A stretch of 6,798 nt of DNA from IMG/VR virus record IMGVR_UViG_2690316243_000012. The stretch is one strand, 5' to 3'. This document shows positions 1 through 6,798 of the stretch, piece after piece. Positions within the stretch are counted from its first letter, which is position 1. The number at the start of each line of letters is the position of its first letter. The DNA comes from a virus. Lineage: Duplodnaviria; Heunggongvirae; Uroviricota; Caudoviricetes. The position numbers and the translations under genes were made by a program. Below the pieces are notes generated by a model, which made no database searches, was not told the DNA's origin, and worked only from the letters and a program-made list of their open reading frames with translations.

Positions 1-12
1 AGTGTAGCGGTA

Positions 13-1290
13 TTAAGCGCAGCTATTTAGTGAATTAAGTAAATTAGTCAGTGACCTTGTAAAGTCTGTTAAACCTTCCTGTGAACCATCGAACATTAAG
101 GCCAGATTATTATTCCATGAATTACTTAAGCGGCCTAACTGCGTCTGAGTAGAGTTAATAATCTTTTCCCATCCACCAGCTTTATCAATCATCCTTCCCA
201 TTTCAGCGGATACTTTAGGAAGAACATCTTTAGAAAGAACCTTACCGTCTTTCATGGCCTTGTCTAATTCTTCCGTAGTCATCCCAAGACTTCTGGCAAA
301 TAACTGAAAAGCACCTGCCATTCTGTCACCTAATTGACCGCGTAGCTCTTCAGCCTGAATCTTTCCTTTAGATGCCATCTGCTCGAAAGCTTTTAAAATC
401 CCGTTAATTTCATCGGTGCTTAGCCCCATTAATCTGGATGTACCAATCACATTAGAAAATAAGGATTCTTTCTGGTCTGCATTCATATCACCAGCACCAG
501 CGGAAAACTTAGCAAAACTGCTTAATGTTTCAATCTGGTCTACACCACTACTATCAGCAAGATTCTTAACAAATTCTGTAGCTCGTTTAGCACCTTCATC
601 ACCTAAAACGAATTGTGCCGCTCGTTGTGATGCTTCTTTTTTCAGACCAACCTCCATAATCCGCCTGTAAGCTTCTAAGGCTGTCTGAAAACTATAAATG
701 GCTGTACCTGCTTTGATTGCACTCGTAGCTAATACATCCAGACTATTTGAAGCATTTTCACTGTGATTATTTTTGCTGGTGGTCTTGTTAAACTTAGAAA
801 GTGTTTCACGAAGAGACTGATTTAACTTTGCTAACTCACGATTAAAAGTTTCGTTTCCAAGTGTCTTGGATTTACTGCTTAAGCTGTAATACTGGCTTTT
901 AAAATACTTCTCAAGCATAGGATTAAAGTCACGAAGCTTGCTCATATTCGCTGAGTAAGCTGCTGTGATTGCTCTGCTTCCGCTAATTCGTGGCTGTCTT
1001 GGTTGTCTAAGTGGCTTTAAAGTATCCTCAATTTCAGTTTTAATCTTAAACGCTCTAGTGTTTTTAAGACGCTGCTCAATCTTGGAAACAGTTTTATCGA
1101 CATTTCTTTCCATTAGTTTGAGAGAATCATTTAAAGGCGTAGGATTAACTCTAAACGACTTATTCAATCGCTTCTCAATTCGTGATGCTACCTGCATCGT
1201 TTGTTTCTCGGCTTTTTCCAAGCCTTTTAAAACTTTCTGAGAGTTAAAACTTAACTCAATCAGAAAATCATCAACTTTAAATTGTGCCAT
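13..1290 (-). CDS. Phage tail tape-measure-domain protein (425 aa); atypically short, domain near C-terminus
   Basis: ORF-track ORF. ATG at 1290-1288 with SD AAAGAGGTG about 10 nt upstream (rc of 1299-1307); TAA stop at 15-13. Residues ~285-385 (SKGKIQAEELRGQLGDRMAGAFQLFARSLGMTTEELDKAMKDGKVLSKDVLPKV) match the duplicated GK..EEL / G.S/T.EEL.K...GK...D.LPK signature I recall from the conserved core of tape-measure proteins. The N-terminal ~280 aa are K/E/S/N/L-rich (coiled-coil-like). Product call is from memory, not a search. Confidence 0.6.
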   Translation of the reverse strand: MAQFKVDDFLIELSFNSQKVLKGLEKAEKQTMQVASRIEKRLNKSFRVNPTPLNDSLKLMERNVDKTVSKIEQRLKNTRAFKIKTEIEDTLKPLRQPRQPRISGSRAITAAYSANMSKLRDFNPMLEKYFKSQYYSLSSKSKTLGNETFNRELAKLNQSLRETLSKFNKTTSKNNHSENASNSLDVLATSAIKAGTAIYSFQTALEAYRRIMEVGLKKEASQRAAQFVLGDEGAKRATEFVKNLADSSGVDQIETLSSFAKFSAGAGDMNADQKESLFSNVIGTSRLMGLSTDEINGILKAFEQMASKGKIQAEELRGQLGDRMAGAFQLFARSLGMTTEELDKAMKDGKVLSKDVLPKVSAEMGRMIDKAGGWEKIINSTQTQLGRLSNSWNNNLALMFDGSQEGLTDFTRSLTNLLNSLNSCA

Positions 1291-2389: not shown

Positions 2390-2413
2390 TATAATTTCCT
2401 CTAAGTGTGGTTA

Positions 2414-2491
2414 TTTCTTAATAGAGCACCTTCAACGCCAATACACTTAGAAGATGACTTAACGATTTATTAAAGATGCTCTATTAAGAAA
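2414..2491. promoter_or_regulatory. Perfect 15-bp inverted repeat pair with 48-bp spacer, 25-102 nt upstream of the 236-aa gene start
   Basis: TTTCTTAATAGAGCA (2414-2428) and its exact reverse complement TGCTCTATTAAGAAA (2477-2491); read directly from the sequence. Could be operator half-sites or a long-range RNA stem in the 5' leader. Confidence 0.4.
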
Positions 2492-2580
2492 AGCCCTAAA
2501 CATAATCTGTGAAGGGCTTTGGAGGTTTGCTTATAACGTTAACGAAGTTTCAGGAAAACTTTCTTTAAAAGCTCTGTTTA

Positions 2581-2617
2581 AAAACTCTTAAAGAAAGCCC
2601 TAACTCATGATTAGGGC
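2581..2617 (-). terminator. Candidate intrinsic terminator ending the upstream minus-strand transcription unit
   Basis: 7-bp stem GCCCTAA (2597-2603) / TTAGGGC (2611-2617) with a 7-nt loop; on the minus strand it is followed by TTTCTTTAAGAGTTTTT (rc of 2581-2596). A second hairpin, AAGCCCT (2491-2497) / AGGGCTT (2513-2519) with a 15-nt loop, lies 80 bp further along the minus strand. Confidence 0.5.
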
Positions 2618-2904
2618 AAAGCTGTAAAGGATTCAATAATGAATGAACAAAGACTTTTTGAGATAGCCTCTCAGACCAACCTGAAAGGCTAGGACGAAAA
2701 GCATTGCACCTTTCCAACTCAGAATATCCATCCATCGGATTATTGAAAGAAAAAATAAGAGAGAATTGCTCTCCCCCATATATACAATTATGTCATGCTC
2801 AAGGTTGTTTGTCAACAGCTTTTAACAGATTGGTAACATTTATACTTTAATAGATGCACCTGCAATCATACCAATCAATACAAAACAGATAATCACCAAT
2901 TCCA

Positions 2905-3228
2905 TTAATGCACCACCTTCGAATCCGTCACCAGAATATTATCGCTATACAAAATTGCTATAGCCGCCTTGAGATATTTTTCAGGGCTAACGCTGTATTT
3001 GTTCGTTTCTTCGATAATAAGACGCTTCATGTTTGAGTCGGTAACAGGAAACATAAAACGCGGTTCACCAGTTTCAATTTCCTGAATAAAGTCTTCAATT
3101 TCTTCTGAGTTTTCAGCCATTAGCTTTAGTAATTTATCAAGGTCAATTGATACACCGGAATCAGCGAAAGCCTGCACCATCATAGCAGTGTCGCTATCAA
3201 TGAAAATCTGTAATTCATATTCGTTCAT
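2905..3228 (-). CDS. Hypothetical acidic protein (107 aa from the ATG start)
   Basis: ORF-track ORF 2905..3261 begins at a TTG. The in-frame ATG at 3228-3226 has a strong SD AAAGGAG 8 nt upstream (minus strand GGTAAAAAGGAGATTTTAAAAATG), so I place the start there. TAA stop at 2907-2905. No recognisable family. Confidence 0.55.
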   Translation of the reverse strand: MNEYELQIFIDSDTAMMVQAFADSGVSIDLDKLLKLMAENSEEIEDFIQEIETGEPRFMFPVTDSNMKRLIIEETNKYSVSPEKYLKAAIAILYSDNILVTDSKVVH

Positions 3229-3248: not shown

Positions 3249-3370
3249 CAGACCTCCTCAATCGCTCTGTAACGAGCTAAACAGTCTTTTTCAGGGGTAG
3301 CCTGTACAGTGGTATTACCCACCCTAAAATAAGATAGTTTTTTGCGTTAGAATGCGATTGAGAGCGTCTG
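3249..3370 (+). repeat. Repeat element copy A: ~122-bp element with imperfect ~27-bp terminal inverted repeats
   Basis: Left arm CAGACCTCCTCAATCGCTCTGTAACGAG (3249-3276); right arm GCGTTAGAATGCGATTGAGAGCGTCTG (3344-3370), whose reverse complement CAGACGCTCTCAATCGCATTCTAACGC matches the left arm at about 19 of 25 positions. Homologous to copy B (4901-4998) and, inverted, to copy C (6286-6392). Lies between two minus-strand genes, its left end 21 nt from the ATG at 3228. Confidence 0.65.
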
Positions 3371-3406
3371 ATAAGCTGTTTTTCTAATTTCTCTTAAAGT
3401 CTCGGA

Positions 3407-3607
3407 CTACCAATAACCTAATTCCGCTTTATTTCGTTCAAACCATTCCGCTGTAACTGCTGTCTTTAGTGTTGCGTTTGGGCTGGTGGCATGAATGAAG
3501 ATATCTTTTGGATTGCAAGCATCACCGAAACCACCTTCTTTGATGAGCAGGTCTGATACATGCTTAATCATTTTATCTGTCAAATATTCGAATTTAATAC
3601 ATAACAT
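3407..3607 (-). CDS. Hypothetical small protein (66 aa from the ATG start; track ORF extends to a TTG at 3640)
   Basis: ORF-track ORF 3407..3640 begins at a TTG. The in-frame ATG at 3607-3605 overlaps the TAA stop of the upstream HNH-like gene (minus strand TAATG) and has SD GGAG 5 nt upstream, a classic translational-coupling junction. TAG stop at 3409-3407. No recognisable family. Confidence 0.45.
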   Translation of the reverse strand: MLCIKFEYLTDKMIKHVSDLLIKEGGFGDACNPKDIFIHATSPNATLKTAVTAEWFERNKAELGYW

Positions 3608-3879
3608 TAAATCTCCAGGAGTAAATTGTTTGGGTGGCAATTTCTTTTATTACCATCCCTGAAGATAATCTTTTTAGTTGCCTGAACTTCATGATGCAAA
3701 AACCAGATGACATACTTCAGATAATAATCACGAGTGCCATAACGAATCATTGGATTACCGTAAGCATCATCTCTTGTCTTAACCTCTCCACCATCAATCC
3801 ATTCAAGCATTCCTGTCTCATAATTAATCATGAAGTAAGTTGCAAAGAACCGTTTAATATCATCTCGCCATTGCTTCAT
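3607..3879 (-). CDS. HNH_3/NUMOD4-like small protein (90 aa), probably catalytically degenerate
   Basis: ORF-track ORF. ATG at 3879-3877 with SD AGGAGG 7 nt upstream. N-terminal LEWIDGGEV...YGNPMIRYG resembles the NUMOD4 motif; C-terminal YLKYVIWFLHHEV...IIFRDGNKRNCHPNNL resembles the HNH_3 motif (H.DGNK.NN...NL), but the position of the catalytic His reads F-R-D-G. Family assignment from memory. Confidence 0.5.
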   Translation of the reverse strand: MKQWRDDIKRFFATYFMINYETGMLEWIDGGEVKTRDDAYGNPMIRYGTRDYYLKYVIWFLHHEVQATKKIIFRDGNKRNCHPNNLLLEI

Positions 3880-3881
3880 AA

Positions 3882-4160
3882 TCAGACCTCCTGAGACAGT
3901 TTGTGAATTTTGATACTTAGTAACCTTGCTAAATCCAGTCCAAAAGCATTTAAGGATTTCAGACTATCAAGGTCATCTTGCTTAATCCTGATATGGTGTC
4001 TTGCAGCCTCTAAGCGACTATTAAGCAAATCCTGTTCGTTAATATCACGGTTAATTGCAAGCTTCATCACTGCTGAGTGTGGCAGACCTGTAATGTTTTT
4101 GATTCGGTTCAGTTCATCAAAGGCTGTCTTTGTAACTCTGGTTAATGTGTGTTTATTCAT
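3882..4160 (-). CDS. Hypothetical small protein (92 aa), possibly DNA-binding
   Basis: ORF-track ORF. ATG at 4160-4158 directly follows the TAA stop of the 185-aa gene (minus strand TAAATG) with SD GAGGA 8 nt upstream; TGA stop at 3884-3882, 2 nt before the next ATG. No recognisable family. Confidence 0.5.
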   Translation of the reverse strand: MNKHTLTRVTKTAFDELNRIKNITGLPHSAVMKLAINRDINEQDLLNSRLEAARHHIRIKQDDLDSLKSLNAFGLDLARLLSIKIHKLSQEV

Positions 4161-4718
4161 TTAAAAATCCTCTGTAACTAAATAGGGGTCAAACTCGAAA
4201 TCTGGTTGCTCGTTTTCCATTGGCTCAATATTCCCAACGGCAATATGATGTTCAACAATGCCAATTAATTTCGCGCACATCACAGCAAGCAAAGCGCAAT
4301 ATTTATCGCTTGGTAATTCGTAACTAAGTCTGGTTGCCTGTCGCTGAAGATGATTTGTCACGGTGGATGCGTTAATTTCGTCAAGATTCTTTAGCAGATA
4401 AAATAGTTTTTTGTTGTATTTCGGGTGGCCTTCACTTCTACAGAACCCAATAAAAACATCATCAAGCTTGCTTGGTAACTGCTCGTAACTGTCAAAGTTA
4501 GCCAGATAATTTTTAATAGTATTCTTTGTTGTTTTGCGTACTGGCATAAATCTGTCTCGTGGCGTAATGCTACGAATGACCGCTTCAATGTTCTTACGTT
4601 CGGATTTGCTAAAGGTTGGGACTTCGTAGCTGGTGGGGTTGTTTGTGTAAGCGTAGGAGTTGTGCTTGTTGCGTTCTCTTGATGCCTGAAGCATCGCTCT
4701 AAATTCTGAATACTGCAT
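4161..4718 (-). CDS. Hypothetical protein (185 aa); first gene of the minus-strand operon
   Basis: ORF-track ORF. ATG at 4718-4716, TAA stop at 4163-4161. About 45 nt downstream of the predicted minus-strand promoter; the SD is weak (GAGAG ~11 nt upstream). No recognisable family. Confidence 0.6.
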   Translation of the reverse strand: MQYSEFRAMLQASRERNKHNSYAYTNNPTSYEVPTFSKSERKNIEAVIRSITPRDRFMPVRKTTKNTIKNYLANFDSYEQLPSKLDDVFIGFCRSEGHPKYNKKLFYLLKNLDEINASTVTNHLQRQATRLSYELPSDKYCALLAVMCAKLIGIVEHHIAVGNIEPMENEQPDFEFDPYLVTEDF

Positions 4719-4769
4719 TCATGTTCTGACTCTCATAAGATGTTATTATTCTGTTAACCTATATATACA

Positions 4770-4798
4770 ATATTAGCATTTTCAAAGACTAATGTCAA
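4770..4798 (-). promoter_or_regulatory. Candidate sigma70 promoter for the minus-strand operon
   Basis: On the minus strand: -35 TTGACA (rc of 4793-4798), 17-bp spacer, -10 TAATAT (rc of 4770-4775). Read directly; the -35 matches consensus perfectly. Confidence 0.5.
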
Positions 4799-4804
4799 GT
4801 ATTT

Positions 4805-4834
4805 TTAACATTTTCGTAACATCTGTGGTATAAT
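4805..4834 (+). promoter_or_regulatory. Candidate sigma70 promoter with extended -10, driving the plus-strand small-protein transcript
   Basis: -35 TTAACA (4805-4810), 18-bp spacer, extended -10 TGgTATAAT (4826-4834). Its -35 is 6 bp from the -35 of the divergent minus-strand promoter. Confidence 0.55.
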
Positions 4835-4900
4835 GGGTTTATGGGGAGAGTAAAATATGAGGCGTGGCTATGTATTTGGTCGCATATTTTGCATTGCACA

Positions 4901-4998
4901 CAGACCTCTTCAATCGCCCTGTAACGAGTTAAACGACCTCTTCAGGTCAACTCATAAGGTCAGGTACTTTTTGTGTCAGAATGCGATTGAGAGCGTCT
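4901..4998 (+). repeat. Repeat element copy B: ~98-bp homologue of copy A, in the leader of the small membrane-protein gene
   Basis: Left arm CAGACCTCTTCAATCGCCCTGTAACGAG (4901-4928) matches A's left arm at 26 of 28 positions; right arm GTCAGAATGCGATTGAGAGCGTCT (4975-4998) carries the same AGAATGCGATTGAGAGCGTCT core as A. The interior shares the first ~20 bp with A (TAAAC..CT.TTCAGG), then is ~20 bp shorter. Ends 15 nt before the ATG at 5013. Confidence 0.65.
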
Positions 4999-5012
4999 TA
5001 CAAGGAAAACTA

Positions 5013-5189
5013 ATGGTAAATCTCCCTCCTGAGCTGGGGTCACCTGATGTATGGACTGGTGGAGGTATTGGGCTGATTGCAGGCCTGCTACTTCGCTACG
5101 TCCTCGTCAGAGTGCTTGTTGTCTTTAAACTGTTCGGTCGTACATGGACGCTTGACCTTAAGGATAACGACCACACAGACCCCCGTTAA
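5013..5189 (+). CDS. Small single-pass membrane protein (58 aa); candidate toxin, holin-like or exclusion peptide
   Basis: ATG at 5013 with SD AAGGA 7 nt upstream; TAA stop at 5187-5189. Translation MVNLPPELGSPDVWTGGGIGLIAGLLLRYVLVRVLVVFKLFGRTWTLDLKDNDHTDPR has one hydrophobic helix (about residues 15-41). The track ORF 4857..5189 is the same frame extended to an ATG at 4857, which has its own SD GGAGAG; that N-terminal extension is encoded entirely by repeat copy B, so I prefer the short form. Confidence 0.5.
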   Translation: MVNLPPELGSPDVWTGGGIGLIAGLLLRYVLVRVLVVFKLFGRTWTLDLKDNDHTDPR

Positions 5190-5200
5190 ACTCCTTCAAA

Positions 5201-5260
5201 ACCCCTGCACGAGATGACAGATAGAAGTCTATGGTACAGGGGTGTCTTTAGCATTTTGTG
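5201..5260 (+). terminator. Candidate terminator-like hairpin after the small membrane-protein gene
   Basis: Perfect 7-bp stem ACCCCTG (5201-5207) / CAGGGGT (5237-5243) with a 29-nt loop that has its own short inverted repeat (ATAG..CTAT), followed by the T-rich GTCTTTAGCATTTTGTG. The large loop makes this a weak call. Confidence 0.3.
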
Positions 5261-5324
5261 CTATCTATTAAAAAATAGCTTGACAGAACCGGAAAGCTGT
5301 ATCTATCAAGCATTCACCTCTCTG

Positions 5325-5501
5325 ACAGTAATTTCTAAAAGTTCTTATTTTTCAATAAGTTGTAATTAGCCATATATAGAGAACTGACAAGTCTCTTCAC
5401 AGACAACTCTGCAACCTTAACAGTAACTTCTAAAAATGCTTATTTTTCAACGAGTTGTAATCACCCAATATATAAGGCTGTCCAGTACCTTCACAGATAA
5501 C
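5325..5501. repeat. Tandem direct repeat, two ~83-bp units at a ~95-bp period
   Basis: Unit 1 (5325-5407) and unit 2 (5420-5501) share ordered blocks ACAGTAA, TTCTAAAA, TTATTTTTCAA, AGTTGTAAT, ATATATA, CTTCACAGA, AAC, with divergent sequence between them (by eye roughly 70% identical). A partial third copy (ACAGTAACTT plus AT-rich tail) is at 6457-6490. Confidence 0.7.
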
Positions 5502-6285
5502 TTCAAGCCCTCTTAACCGCCCCACTAATCGGGAGAAGAGCGATAACCCCAGAGAGGGAAGCTCCTTTCTTAACCGACCTCTTAAACGACCTTTACAGAC
5601 CTTGTTCAAGGTAATCACAATAGTTTTTCTTCCCTCGGTTTCCTGTGTTCCTCGGCTGGCTATTGAGATTTGAAAGACCTCTGTAAGCGCTCTCTTAGCG
5701 AGAGAAAAATCATTCATAGTGACCCCAAGCGAAGCGCCCCTCTAAAAAAAGATTTTTTAGCTATTTTGTTTAAAAGCATATCAAACGATACATTTTATTG
5801 ATTTAGGTCAAAGACAAAAGCATTGACAAAATGGTAAGATTGTTCACATGACCTTACTTAACAGACTTTTAAGAGACTTTGAAACAGCCTGTTTAACAGG
5901 TCACTACCTCTGGTCTTATCGTTCCCTTCTTTCTAGGTGGTTATCTGTTAAGAGTTTTTCAGTTTTTATTCTTAAGATAATTGTTAAGATGATACTCTCC
6001 CTTCGGGTTATATCGTATCTCTTCTCCCGTTAAATATCCCTTCACAGTCAGACTAAATAACACCTGTGTAGTTCTTGGTAGAATCTTTCAAGGTAACTTA
6101 GCTCTGAGTTTATGAAGTTGACCTATGAGATAGACTCTACCGAATCTGTTAGTCAATTGTTGCTTAGGTGCTGCTAAGGCTTACTTAGTGGAAAGAGAGG
6201 GGATATGTGACCATAGGGGAACCCCTCCTGTTAAAAGACTACTTAGAAGTCTGAGGTTTTAGTAAAATCTGTGAATATGGCTTCT

Positions 6286-6392
6286 CAGACGCTCTGTAAC
6301 GCATTCTAAGCGATTTTACCCCTTTATTTTAAGGTGGTTAGTACATCCCTATAGGTTACCCCTAAAAATGGGGTTAAAACTCGCTACAGAGC
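6286..6392 (-). repeat. Repeat element copy C: inverted, diverged copy of element A/B lacking the outer left arm
   Basis: Plus-strand CAGACGCTCTGTAACGCATTCTAAGCG (6286-6312) matches the reverse complement of A's right arm (CAGACGCTCT....GCATTCTAA identical apart from CAATC to GTAAC). The reverse complement of 6313-6392 aligns with A's interior and inner left arm (AGGGGTAACCTATAGGG vs AGGGGTAGCCTGTACAG; CCACCTTAAAATAAA vs CCACCCTAAAATAAG; GCTCTGTAGCGAG vs GCTCTGTAACGAG). Confidence 0.55.
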
Positions 6393-6643
6393 TTTCTATG
6401 AGATTAGCTTCTAATCGAATCAACTATGAGGTTTGGTAGGATTGTGCAAAATCTGTACAGTAACTTTTCAGAATCTGAAAATTTTTATAAAAAATGACTA
6501 GCCCTCTTTGAATCTCATCTTCCCCGAATCTTCAAAAATATCTGACAGATGTCTGTAGCTGCTAAGTACCCGTCACACCAGCTATGTGACCCCCTTGGCA
6601 AAAAAGCCAAATATCAGCTACATCCATGTAACTATTCAGTAAC

Positions 6644-6798
6644 TTATTTAGCAAGTCTGTAATAAGTTGCTCTAGAGATTCCTAACTCTTCCTGAATCTG
6701 CAACCTCGTCTTACCTTGTGAAATAAGCGTCTGTACAGCCTCTGAAGAAGCTTTTACAGGCCTCCCCATATGTACCCCTTCAGCTTTAGCACGTTCAA
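6644..6798 (-). CDS. Small serine recombinase (resolvase/invertase family), C-terminal HTH domain only; 5' part lies beyond the window
   Basis: Not in the ORF track (only 50 codons inside the window). Minus-strand translation of 6796-6647 is ERAKAEGVHMGRPVKASSEAVQTLISQGKTRLQIQEELGISRATYYRLAK, then TAA at 6646-6644. The GRP motif followed by a helix-turn-helix ending ..G.SR.T.YR.. is the characteristic C-terminus of Hin/Gin/Tn3-resolvase-type serine recombinases (from memory). Confidence 0.7.
   Translation of the reverse strand, partial: ERAKAEGVHMGRPVKASSEAVQTLISQGKTRLQIQEELGISRATYYRLAK

What the first reader, a model, noticed from the sequence alone, without database searches (positions are those of the whole stretch)
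3249..6392. Family of three homologous ~100-120 bp imperfect-palindromic elements (A and B forward, C inverted), plus scattered fragments
Copies at 3249-3370, 4901-4998 and 6286-6392 share long terminal inverted repeats built from the blocks CAGAC / GCTCT / CAATC or GTAAC / GCATT / CTAAC, and homologous interiors. Copy C is inverted relative to A and B by both arms and the interior polarity. Arm-like fragments recur in the gene-poor region (GACCTCTTAAACGACCTTTACAGACC at 5576-5601; CTATTGAGA...AGACCTCTGTAAGCGCTCTC at 5659-5695). I do not recognise this as ERIC, REP/BIME, Correia or an integron attC. Candidate roles are recombination sites, a MITE-like mobile repeat, or a structured RNA module.
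Basis: seen in the sequence. Interest (0 to 1): 0.8.

Follow-up and report, generated by a model that had tools for sequence, protein, structure and literature searches.

The report
Palindromic repeats in satellite-like phage island
Three real, related 100-120 bp palindromes lie in the non-coding parts of an uncharacterised, probably phage-parasitic island of Shigella and E. coli, and their arms are copies of a short motif also found in the non-coding control regions of many virulent phages, so they look like recognition sites for some factor rather than recombination sites or a known repeat family.

Summary
A (3249-3370), B (4901-4998) and C (6286-6392) are homologous imperfect palindromes. 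A and B are direct and C is inverted, and the two "fragments" are also non-random.

They occur only inside an ~11 kb integrative island. The island carries a large serine recombinase, tape-measure and Dit genes related to Felix O1-like phages, an HNH gene and a 1.4 kb gene-poor region. It is present in about 10% of complete E. coli genomes, and in S. sonnei, Citrobacter and Salmonella.

- B is a clean ~101 bp insertion in a 5' leader.
- C sits in a swappable cassette.
- A's arms are 100% identical between islands whose flanking genes are only 60-75% identical.
- Each arm consists of tandem 10-11 nt units (CTCTnnAAnCG).
- The same motif, nearly identical, occurs in unannotated intergenic DNA of T5-like, SPN3US-like, Xanthomonas jumbo and Vibrio T4-like phages. 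It also occurs in the iteron-packed non-coding region of Felix O1-like phages.

No recombinant arrangement between copies was found in 5,426 E. coli genomes. The elements do not track the small recombinase. There is no Rfam match and almost no covariation.

Best reading (0.4): sequence-specific cis-acting recognition palindromes, probably bound as DNA. The main rival is a co-transcribed RNA hairpin.

The parts
3249..3370 (-). Element A. A 122-bp imperfect palindrome, given in the orientation homologous to C(+). It lies between the stop of the 77-aa gene and the SD of the 107-aa gene, inside a minus-strand operon.
   Evidence: It is 93-100% identical in other islands whose flanking genes are 60-75% identical.
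3343..3370 (-). A, 5' arm in the minus orientation: CAGACGCTCTCAATCGCATTCTAACGC. It is made of two tandem ~10-nt units (CGCTCTCAAT | CGCATTCTAA) and matches the variant of the phage motif seen in Vibrio phage QD01.
   Evidence: Direct reading; pattern hit.
3249..3277 (+). A, other arm read on the plus strand: CAGACCTCCTCAATCGCTCTGTAACGAGC (units CTCCTCAATCG | CTCTGTAACG).
   Evidence: (D1).
4901..4998 (-). Element B. A ~100-bp palindrome with a shorter interior. The inserted block is about 4900-5001, placed between promoter P(+) and the SD of the 58-aa ORF.
   Evidence: The empty site GCATTGCACAC|AGGAAATTTAATGG is seen in L002, L036, L032 and L035; the site is filled in the window, L024, L023, L005, L026 and L038.
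6286..6396 (+). Element C. It is inverted relative to A and B and forms part of a swappable cassette at 6234-6447.
   Evidence: The cassette is empty (20 nt) in L036 and L032. In L005, L023, L026, L035 and L038 it is replaced by a block with a promoter, a G-rich stretch and a terminator.
6283..6319 (+). Core motif in C's 5' arm: CAGACGCTCTGTAACGCATTCTAAGCGATTTTAC. It is near-identical to intergenic sequence in many virulent phages.
   Evidence: 392 phage records match. XaC1 has 1 mismatch in 31. L007 has a 33-nt exact match. Instances are aligned.
5679..5700 (+). Solo tandem doublet of the arm motif (CTCTGTAAGCG | CTCTCTTAGCG) in the gene-poor region.
   Evidence: 0.03 expected. A CTCTGTAAC...CTCTTAAC block is kept at this position in all islands, including those without A, B or C.
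5570..5598 (+). Two overlapping copies of the B-interior motif TTAAMCGACCT.
   Evidence: (D8).
6254..6281 (+). Degenerate copy of promoter P(+) (TTTTAGTAAAATCTGTGAATATGG) just upstream of C. Its activity is uncertain.
   Evidence: (D7) and direct reading. It was not flagged by the promoter scan.
4805..4834 (+). Strong sigma-70-like promoter P(+): TTAACA, 18-nt spacer, TATAAT, preceded by TG. It reads through B into the 58-aa ORF and the gene-poor region.
   Evidence: 11 of 12 positions match; conserved in all islands.
4770..4798 (-). Divergent promoter P(-): TTGACA, 17-nt spacer, TAATAT. It drives the operon of the 185-aa, 92-aa, HNH, 77-aa and 107-aa genes, which contains A.
5013..5189 (+). 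Conserved 58-aa hydrophobic ORF. Its SD lies 3 nt after the B insertion.
   Evidence: Annotated as a hypothetical protein in RefSeq.
2905..3228 (-). 107-aa gene. Its SD (AAGGAG) lies ~10 nt after A.
3607..3879 (-). 90-aa HNH-like gene. In the loci sampled, A (or its variant in L035) is present only where this 77-aa/HNH-type cassette is present.
6644..6798 (-). C-terminus (HTH_7) of a small serine recombinase that runs off the window. It is context only, not a demonstrated partner of the elements.

Best explanation
A, B and C are island-specific composite palindromes. Each is made of two inverted copies of a short control motif built from tandem 10-11 nt units (CTCTnnAAnCG). The same motif is found in the non-coding regions of virulent phages: Felix O1-like, T5-like, SPN3US-like and others. 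The elements sit as discrete cassettes in the non-coding DNA of an ~11 kb integrative island that is probably a satellite of Felix O1-like phages. I think they work in cis as sequence-specific recognition sites for a trans-acting factor, most likely a DNA-binding protein of the helper phage, the island or the host. The factor would bind the phased repeats on both arms and so couple island gene expression, replication or packaging to phage infection.

Shown:
- The family, its confinement to the island, and its cassette behaviour.
- The extreme conservation of the arms.
- The shared phage motif.
- The lack of recombinant arrangements between copies.

Inferred:
- That recognition is by a protein on double-stranded DNA.
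- That the factor comes from the helper phage.
- What the biological output is.
For: 1. The arms are conserved as sequence, not as structure. Across islands, the 3250-3370 block is 100% identical while flanking genes fall to 58-78%. In L017 and L011 both arms stay 100% identical while the interior drops to 78-80%. The mismatches between the two arms are the same in A and B.
2. Each arm is two tandem ~10-nt units. The phage version is three units at exact 10-nt phasing (CTCTAAAACG|CTCTGTAACG|CTCTCTAAGCG).
3. The motif matches 392 phage records, and every hit opened lay in intergenic DNA. It occurs in both orientations relative to flanking genes: sense in SuperGirl and XaC1, antisense in L007 and EspYZU15.
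4. Link to a helper phage. The island's Dit-like protein is 65.6% identical to Felixounavirus garuso gp119. The tape-measure protein's best hits are Felix O1-like phages. Two blocks of the gene-poor region match garuso's 1.65-kb repeat-packed non-coding region. Four of garuso's eight GCTCT[AG]TA sites lie in that region, as two tandem doublets on opposite strands.
5. A solo doublet is conserved in every island, and B's interior reuses another motif of the gene-poor region.
6. No consensus RNA fold or covariation and no Rfam family.
Against: No binding protein is identified. The island's small proteins have no informative Pfam, NCBIfam, PHROG, PADLOC or PDB match.

The elements are dispensable. 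L032-34 have none, and other islands have one or two.

A and B lie in transcribed DNA immediately 5' of Shine-Dalgarno sequences and fold very stably, which fits an RNA role equally well.

In phages, the motif's flanks tend to be complementary in an instance-specific way. The mean duplex energy is -4.0 for each instance's own flanks, against -3.07 when flanks are permuted between instances (23 of 1000 permutations as low). This points to a hairpin with the motif in the loop.

B's interior shows one compensatory change, and one variant pairs only as G.U on the plus strand.

A motif shared by phages of Xanthomonas, Vibrio and enterobacteria is hard to assign to any one phage protein.
Confidence: 0.4

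Rival explanations
1. Co-transcribed RNA hairpins of the ERIC or Correia type. The elements are transcribed within mRNAs or leaders and fold into ~30-bp imperfect duplexes next to ribosome-binding sites. They would act through RNase III or RNase E processing, mRNA stabilisation or translational control. C might be a small RNA able to pair with transcripts containing A or B.
For: - A ends ~10 nt before the SD of the 107-aa gene, and B ends 3 nt before the SD of the 58-aa ORF, downstream of a strong promoter.
- Fold z-scores range from -3.2 to -6.4.
- Islands lacking A carry a different hairpin (9-bp stem) at the same intercistronic spot.
- C's cassette alternates with a block that has a promoter and a rho-independent terminator, which looks like a small-RNA gene.
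- B's interior shows a compensatory GACCT/AGGTC to GGCCT/AGGCC change.
- CTCTNTAA occurs 6 times on the plus strand of the window and never on the minus strand.
- Flanks of the phage motif are complementary more often than chance.
Against: - RNAalifold gives only -7 kcal/mol consensus energy with 2 weakly covarying pairs for the A and C types. For the T5-like element it finds only a 4-bp invariant stem.
- Arm sequences are 100% conserved, including fixed mismatches, instead of drifting with compensation.
- A(-) and B(+) are the transcribed strands but have opposite element orientations.
- The motif would be in the stem in the island but in the loop in phages.
- The motif's orientation relative to genes is mixed in phages.
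- The promoter upstream of C is degenerate and was not flagged.
Confidence: 0.3
2. Selfish or neutral miniature mobile palindromes. They would spread between islands by gene conversion, homing (perhaps aided by the adjacent HNH nuclease) or illegitimate insertion, with no function for the island.
For: - B is a clean indel.
- A is a sharply bounded block, 100% identical inside 60-75% identical flanks.
- Presence or absence is patchy.
- A co-occurs with the 77-aa/HNH cassette in the sampled loci.
- Many genomes carry two or more islands, which gives templates for conversion.
Against: - There are only three fixed positions and no new insertion sites among the ~20 islands inspected.
- The junction repeat is at most 2 bp, and B carries 4 extra nt beyond the palindrome.
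- No related transposase or IS was found.
- In L017 and L011 the arms are 100% identical but the interior only 78-80%. This argues for selection on the arms rather than recent transfer of whole copies.
Confidence: 0.15
3. Single-strand DNA signals: hairpins extruded or exposed during replication or packaging. They would serve as priming, origin or packaging signals that the island borrows from its helper phage.
For: - The size and form (100-120 nt imperfect palindromes with conserved arms) resemble single-strand initiation signals, judged from my own knowledge.
- They lie next to a non-coding region homologous to the helper's repeat-rich region.
- In T5-like phages the motif lies in the terminal-repeat untranslated region near DnaA boxes.
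Against: - The elements are dispensable in some islands, which is unexpected for an origin or packaging site.
- No replication or terminase protein is identified in the island.
- Nothing was tested directly.
Confidence: 0.1
4. Sites for the small serine recombinase at the island end. A x B would excise the 1.65-kb gene cassette, and B or A x C would invert the gene-poor region.
For: The repeats are direct and inverted, of res-like length (~100-120 bp), and lie near a resolvase/invertase gene.
Against: - Zero of 442-470 island-bearing E. coli genomes contain the predicted deletion or inversion junctions.
- L024 has a different recombinase on the other strand yet carries A, B and C.
- L036 and L023 have the window's recombinase type but only A or only B.
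- L032 has neither.
Confidence: 0.05

Closest known systems
Unannotated ~116-nt element in the terminal-repeat untranslated region of T5-like phages (Demerecviridae), and its ~30-nt core in SPN3US-like, XaC1, QD01 and other phages
   Same: The core CTCTaAAACGCTCTGTAACGCwyTCTAAGCG is near-identical to C's 5' arm (1 mismatch in 31 in XaC1). It has the same tandem 10-nt unit structure as all the arms. It is intergenic and unannotated.
   Different: In phages it is usually a single copy, or two copies about 275 bp apart in FZ41, with locally complementary flanks. It is not a 100-120 bp palindrome. It is absent from T5 itself and is not one of the named IRA-IRD repeats (Davison preprint 10.1101/866236). 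Its function is unknown.
Repeat-dense 1.65-kb non-coding region of Felix O1-like phages (e.g. garuso, 48.95-50.6 kb)
   Same: It contains tandem doublets of GCTCT(A/G)TA(A/T)A on both strands, plus TGTTAAG-type repeats that also fill the island's gene-poor region. Two blocks are 83% identical to the window.
   Different: No complete A-, B- or C-like palindrome was found there (best nhmmer E = 0.011-0.03). The doublets lie 435 bp apart.
ERIC/IRU, and Correia (NEMIS) elements
   Same: These are ~100-150 bp imperfect palindromes inserted in transcribed intergenic DNA next to genes, present or absent between strains, and predicted to form long RNA hairpins.
   Different: Those families are genome-wide and multi-copy. 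This one has at most three copies, all inside one island. No TA target duplication is seen. I recognise no sequence similarity, but that rests on my own knowledge and was not tested with a tool.
Iteron or operator arrays of plasmid and phage origins and partition sites
   Same: Short units repeated at one helical turn, in inverted groups, in non-coding control DNA. The sequence is conserved rather than the pairing.
   Different: No cognate Rep, Par or repressor protein is identified. The elements are dispensable in some islands.
Serine-recombinase sites (res, hix/gix) and integron attC sites
   Same: Imperfect inverted repeats of similar overall length, sitting at cassette boundaries near a recombinase gene.
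   Different: No recombination products were found. There is no link to recombinase type and no IntI. The attC core sites RYYYAAC/GTTRRRY are not matched on direct reading.
boxA/nut-type antitermination signals
   Same: CGCUCUGUAACGC matches rrn boxA (GCUCUUUAACAA, recalled from my own knowledge) at 9 of 12 positions. It is followed by a small hairpin, and several copies lie downstream of promoter-like sequences at the head of untranslated stretches.
   Different: The A-type and QD01 variants diverge from boxA. The motif's orientation relative to transcription is mixed. With a 12-nt consensus the match may well be chance. This is a lead only.

Membership tests
ERIC / REP-BIME (enterobacterial genome-wide intergenic repeats) | Many copies dispersed around the chromosome in unrelated intergenic regions | tested here: not met
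   A-like sequence occurs in 398 of 5,426 E. coli genomes at 1-6 places each. All places opened lie in this island or its remnants.
ERIC / REP-BIME | Match to the family consensus sequence | not tested
   No library of these consensus sequences was available. That I see no resemblance rests on my own knowledge.
Classical MITE (including Correia/NEMIS) | Terminal inverted repeats | tested here: met
   The arms are ~27-30 nt and ~75-80% complementary.
Classical MITE (including Correia/NEMIS) | Target-site duplication of fixed length (TA for Correia) | tested here: not met
   Comparison of the empty and filled B sites allows at most a 2-bp AG repeat. B carries 4 extra nt (TACA) outside the palindrome.
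Classical MITE (including Correia/NEMIS) | Copies at many independent insertion sites, and a parent IS with matching ends | tested here: not met
   Only three homologous positions were seen in ~20 islands. The IS elements present (IS1, IS3, IS630 types) are unrelated insertions.
Integron attC | An adjacent IntI tyrosine integrase and a cassette array | tested here: not met
   The only recombinases are serine-type.
Integron attC | R''/R' core sites RYYYAAC ... GTTRRRY | tested here: not met
   Direct reading gives TTCTAAC / GTTACAG and CTGTAAC / GTTAGAA, which do not fit the consensus.
Serine-recombinase res/hix-type sites | Natural variants showing deletion or inversion between copies | tested here: not met
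   0 of 442-470 matching genomes cover 80% or more of the synthetic junction queries.
Serine-recombinase res/hix-type sites | Co-occurrence with a particular recombinase | tested here: not met
   L024 has another recombinase on the other strand yet carries A, B and C. L036 and L023 have the window's recombinase type with only one element. L032 has neither.
Serine-recombinase res/hix-type sites | Binding and cleavage by the recombinase | not testable with these tools
   This needs biochemistry.
Curated RNA families (Rfam 15) | A covariance-model match | tested here: not met
   No hit at E <= 1 in the window. There was nothing in related islands at the gathering threshold, and nothing for the phage motif loci.
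Structured cis-regulatory RNA (generic) | A conserved secondary structure supported by covariation | tested here: inconclusive
   Single copies fold well. The consensus is only -7 kcal/mol with 2 weakly covarying pairs. One compensatory change lies in B's interior. Diversity is low.
Iteron/operator-type protein-binding arrays | Short units repeated in phase with the DNA helix, conserved in sequence | tested here: met
   Units of 10-11 nt make up the arms, the phage motif and the garuso doublets. The arms are 100% conserved.
Iteron/operator-type protein-binding arrays | A cognate binding protein | not testable with these tools
   No informative homology was found for the island's small proteins.
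T5 left-terminal-repeat elements (IRA-IRD, DRA-DRE; Davison) | Identity with the named repeats of T5 | tested here: not met
   The motif is absent from T5 positions 4500-10600 even allowing 9 mismatches in 31. In SuperGirl it lies outside the IRC-spacer-IRD homologue.

The most novel reading that the evidence does not exclude
The ~30-nt triple 10-mer (CTCTnnAAnCG, three times) is an undescribed, widely shared cis-element of virulent phages: Felix O1-like, T5-like, SPN3US-like, and jumbo and T4-like phages of Xanthomonas and Vibrio. It would be read by a conserved host or phage factor. A previously undescribed family of satellites of Felix O1-like phages has copied it, as inverted pairs, to sense or hijack its helper. 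The palindromes would then be the satellite's handle on the helper's regulatory, replication or packaging machinery.
Probability: 0.2. Interest if true: 0.85.

Novelty: new variant of a known kind. Interest (0 to 1): 0.6.

Why it matters
If the arms are recognition sites, they point to an unknown factor-site pair used by several families of virulent phages. They would also show how a chromosomal island plugs into it. The island itself looks like a satellite of strictly lytic Felix O1-like phages, a kind of relationship so far best documented only for PLE and ICP1. It is present in about one in ten E. coli genomes and in S. sonnei, yet I found no description of it in the paper library. Practically, the elements and the motif are cheap markers for finding such islands and for mapping control regions in therapeutic phages of the T5 and Felix O1 types. 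If instead they are only RNA hairpins or selfish repeats, the finding is a modest addition to the catalogue of intergenic palindromes.

Tried and rejected
- Megablast of the window against the phage and plasmid collections found no match. The source turned out to be a chromosomal island.
- Rfam and tRNA scans found nothing.
- My first collection scan used a mis-typed pattern, one N too many, and was wasted.
- A broader arm pattern in viral contigs added only chance hits.
- Recombination-site idea: three synthetic junction searches were all negative.
- RNA consensus folding was weak, both for the island copies and for the T5-like element.
- T5 injection-stop repeats: the motif is not in T5 and is not one of the named repeats.
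- T5 nick-site link: the BF23 paper gives no consensus.
- Shared protein between the island and the motif-bearing phage loci: none found by tblastn.
- Literature search by sequence strings, and for satellites with tape-measure or Felix O1 links, found nothing relevant.
- Searches of PDB, NCBIfam and PADLOC with the island's small proteins found nothing.
- I compared the motif from memory with known binding sites (PhoB, CpxR, TorR, ArgR, MetJ, IHF, Ter, LexA, mar box) and dropped them for poor fit. boxA is kept only as a lead.
- I considered a type I toxin-antitoxin reading (58-aa ORF with C as antisense RNA). It is unsupported because B and C are absent from many islands that keep the ORF.

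Full report
**Observation**

The repeat finder recovers the shared arms (D1, D6) and the A/C and B/C inverted relations (I1, I2). The pattern AGACGCTCTNNANCGCATTCT occurs exactly three times (A minus, B minus, C plus), against none in 200 shuffles. A(-), B(-) and C(+) align over their whole length at 73% column identity, with B missing about 23 interior bases. Each copy folds into a long imperfect hairpin on either strand, with z-scores from -3.2 to -6.4.

The two 'fragments' are also non-random. The B-interior 17-mer recurs twice at 5570-5598. Positions 5679-5700 are a solo tandem doublet, CTCTGTAAGCG|CTCTCTTAGCG. Each has 0.03 expected by chance.

**Where the window comes from**

The 185-aa protein is 100% identical to a Shigella sonnei protein found on more than 1,000 contigs. 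The window is part of an ~11 kb chromosomal island. Its gene order is:

- large serine recombinase
- Dit-like 'baseplate' gene
- tape-measure gene
- a 69-aa gene and a 236-aa gene
- a ~500-nt leader with a strong promoter and terminator hairpins
- a 107-aa gene
- element A
- a 77-aa gene, an HNH gene, a 92-aa gene and a 185-aa gene
- divergent promoters
- element B
- a 58-aa hydrophobic ORF
- ~1.3 kb of gene-poor DNA
- element C
- small serine recombinase

Related islands occur in 544 of 5,426 complete E. coli genomes, at several integration sites. They also occur in E. albertii, Citrobacter and Salmonella. In S. sonnei the island is decaying through IS insertions, and the tape-measure gene is truncated at the left end of the window.

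**Distribution of the elements**

A-like sequence occurs in 398 E. coli genomes, at 1-6 places each, never on plasmids. Every place I opened was in such an island or a remnant of one. Within islands the copies always occupy the same three positions, but presence is patchy:

| Loci | Elements present |
|---|---|
| window, L024, L017 | A, B and C |
| L005 | A and B |
| L023, L026, L038 | B only |
| L036, L002 | A only |
| L035 | one C-like copy at the A position |
| L032-34 | none |

**Cassette behaviour**

B is a clean indel. Islands without it read GCATTGCACAC|AGGAAATTTAATGG, that is, promoter leader directly followed by the SD of the 58-aa ORF. Islands with it carry ~101 bp at exactly that point, with only a 2-bp ambiguity and 4 extra bases beyond the palindrome.

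C lies in a 214-bp cassette. In L036 and L032 the cassette is absent, leaving 20 nt. In L005, L023, L026, L035 and L038 it is replaced by an unrelated block with a TTGACA promoter, GGTAGGGT-type repeats and a rho-independent terminator.

A was seen only where a 77-aa/HNH-type cassette precedes it. Islands with a 128-aa gene there instead have a different intergenic hairpin.

**The most informative result on constraint**

Against the window, block 3250-3370 is 100% identical in L002, L005, L036 and L003, while the flanking genes fall to 58-78%. In L017 and L011 both arms remain 100% identical, but the interior is 78-80% and the flanks 42-72%. The arms are therefore kept as sequence.

Their mutual mismatches are the same in A and B. 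RNAalifold on the A, C and L035-type copies gives only -7 kcal/mol and 2 weakly covarying pairs. This pattern fits sequence-specific recognition better than a requirement merely to pair.

**Recombination tested**

I built the junctions expected from an AxB deletion, a BxC inversion and an AxC inversion, and searched all E. coli genomes with them. Between 442 and 470 genomes matched the flanks, and none had a place covering 80% or more of a junction.

The small recombinase varies independently of the elements. L024 has a different recombinase gene on the other strand but carries all three elements. L036 and L023 have the window's recombinase type with one element each. L032 has a 277-aa unknown protein instead and no elements.

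**An unexpected relative**

C's 5' arm (CAGACGCTCTGTAACGCATTCTAAGCGATTTTAC) matches 392 records in the phage collection. No annotated feature lies under most listed matches, and every hit opened in detail was intergenic. The records include:

- T5-like Demerecviridae of Salmonella, Klebsiella, Escherichia, Vibrio and Pectobacterium
- SPN3US-like jumbo phages
- Xanthomonas jumbo phage XaC1 (1 mismatch in 31)
- Vibrio T4-like phage QD01
- Cronobacter phage EspYZU15
- several IMG/VR contigs

Aligned, the core is three tandem 10-mers: CTCTAAAACG|CTCTGTAACG|CTCTCTAAGCG. QD01's variant (CGCACTGAATCGCATTCTAAGCG) resembles the A-type arm (CGCTCTCAATCGCATTCTAACGC). So every arm of A, B and C is a copy of this motif, and each island element is an inverted pair of copies.

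In T5-like phages the core heads a ~116-nt block conserved in 205 records. The block lies in the untranslated part of the terminal repeat, next to DnaA boxes. It is absent from T5 itself and is not one of the repeats named by Davison. Neither Rfam nor the paper library knows it.

**Link to a helper phage**

The island's tape-measure fragment is closest to Felix O1-like myophages, at 32% identity over 97% of its length. Its Dit-like protein is 65.6% identical to the protein encoded next to the tape-measure gene of Felixounavirus garuso. Window positions 209-390 are 77.6% identical to that phage's tape-measure gene at the DNA level.

Two blocks of the gene-poor region (5893-5942 and 6453-6500) are 83% identical to garuso's 1.65-kb non-coding region. 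That region is packed with ~11-12 nt repeats of the TGTTAAG/CTTGTTAG type, which also populate the island's gene-poor DNA.

That region also holds four of the phage's eight GCTCT[AG]TA sites, arranged as two tandem doublets on opposite strands 435 bp apart: AAACGCTCTATAAAGCTCTATAACAG and AAAAGCTCTGTATAGCTCTGTATAACC. A solo doublet is conserved at one position in all islands, including those without A, B or C. B's interior reuses another motif of the region. The palindromes are thus assembled from the same short motifs as the control regions of the island and of its presumed helper.

**DNA or RNA?**

For DNA recognition:

- the units are phased at about one helical turn;
- the arms are conserved as sequence;
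- the motif has mixed orientation relative to neighbouring genes in phages (sense in SuperGirl and XaC1, between convergent genes in SPN3US and QD01, antisense in L007 and EspYZU15);
- there is no consensus fold.

For RNA, or single-stranded hairpins:

- A and B sit in transcribed DNA just 5' of Shine-Dalgarno sequences;
- the hairpins are stable;
- another hairpin replaces A in islands that lack it;
- B's interior has one compensatory change, and one variant pairs only as G.U on the plus strand, the strand transcribed from P(+);
- the sequences flanking CGCT...AGCG in phage instances are complementary more than expected (own -4.0 kcal/mol, shuffled -2.55 with 0 of 300 as low, permuted -3.07 with 23 of 1000 as low).

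The last point would put the motif in a loop in phages, whereas in the island it lies in the stem. I therefore commit, with modest confidence (0.4), to cis-acting recognition palindromes read as DNA. Co-transcribed RNA hairpins are the main rival (0.3).

**Comparison with known families**

- The elements work most like iteron or operator clusters, or alternatively like ERIC- or Correia-type transcribed palindromes.
- They are not members of ERIC or REP, because they are confined to the island.
- They are not classical MITEs: there is no fixed target duplication, only three fixed sites, and no parent IS.
- They are not attC sites: there is no IntI and the core sites are not matched.
- They do not behave as res or hix sites: no recombination products were found and they do not track the recombinase.
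- The similarity of CGCUCUGUAACGC to rrn boxA (9 of 12 positions, consensus recalled from memory) is noted only as a lead.

**Limits**

- About 20 islands were inspected in detail, not all ~540.
- The diversity of the copies is low, so covariation tests have little power.
- Nothing here shows transcription, binding or helper dependence.
- The Felix O1 link rests on one phage genome read in full.
- The co-occurrence of A with the HNH cassette is from a small sample.

Noticed in passing
whole window; L023 938-13040; L024 2715-13327; L032, L035, L036: The window belongs to an ~11 kb integrative island that looks like an undescribed satellite of virulent Felix O1-like phages. It carries a large serine recombinase, tape-measure and Dit-like genes (the Dit-like protein is 65.6% identical to garuso gp119), and non-coding blocks homologous to the phage's non-coding region. 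It is present in 544 of 5,426 E. coli genomes. I found no paper on it.
   Followed up: partly
window 5190-6640: The gene-poor region is a mosaic of conserved short motifs (TGTTAAG / TTAACAG, CTTCACAG, ACAGTAACTT) and small hairpins with compensatory changes between islands. One example is 5988-6015, where the stem GATAC...GTATC (window) becomes GAACC...GGTTC (L005) or GTAAC...GTTAC (L026). Each hairpin is followed by CTCCCGTTAAA-like sequence.
   Followed up: partly
L005 8075-8270; L023 12090-12290; L026 1735-1940: At the position of C, other islands carry a different cassette. It has a TTGACA promoter, ~150 nt with GGTAGGGT / GGTGGGGT repeats, and a rho-independent terminator (AAAGGGACTCTTTCGGGAGTCCTTTTT). 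It looks like a small-RNA gene and has no Rfam match.
   Followed up: partly
window 5013-5189 (+): A 58-aa ORF (MVNLPPELGSPDVWTGGGIGLIAGLLLRYVLVRVLVVFKLFGRTWTLDLKDNDHTDPR) is conserved in all islands and lies behind the strongest promoter. It has a hydrophobic stretch that looks like one membrane helix. It could be a toxin, holin-like or exclusion protein.
   Followed up: no
window 2400-2815 (-): A near-consensus promoter (TTGACA, 17-nt spacer, CATAAT, with TG; 2815-2787) is followed by terminator-like hairpins at 2779-2755 and 2617-2597, and by a 22-nt-arm palindrome at 2414-2491. All lie ahead of the 236-aa, 69-aa and tape-measure genes. The layout is that of an antitermination-controlled late operon.
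   Followed up: no
L070 2485-2600; L071 1996-2100; L082-L085: A ~116-nt block is conserved in the terminal-repeat untranslated region of 205 T5-like phage records and in Xanthomonas jumbo phage XaC1, together with the promoter that follows it. It is absent from T5, where an HNH gene is inserted in that region according to Davison's preprint.
   Followed up: partly
window 5317-5372 and 5412-5467: Two 95-bp-spaced direct repeats (85% identical) each contain ACAGTAAYTTCTAAAA and a TTGTAAT...ATATA promoter-like stretch. The Citrobacter and Salmonella islands (L032, L035, L036) and E. coli L038 have only one copy.
   Followed up: no
window 5386-5746 compared with L028-L031: Four other S. sonnei genomes lack this 361-bp stretch, which includes the second 95-bp repeat and both 'fragments'. 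The deletion appears to lie between the two 95-bp repeats.
   Followed up: no
L034 3822-6294: In one Citrobacter freundii island, a DDE transposase gene and a beta-lactamase gene are inserted in the island's gene-poor region.
   Followed up: no
window 1-1290 (-); L030 14204-16518: The tape-measure gene is cut to 425 codons in S. sonnei by an IS630-type insertion. Many S. sonnei genomes also carry IS1 inside the 107-aa gene. The island is decaying in this species.
   Followed up: no
window 1304, 1664, 3265, 4170, 5679, 6292: CTCTNTAA occurs six times on the plus strand and never on the minus strand. Three of the six are the reverse complements of ribosome-binding regions of minus-strand genes (TTAAAGAGGTG, TTACAGAGGAT). 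Part of the arm motif therefore resembles this operon's translation-initiation context.
   Followed up: no
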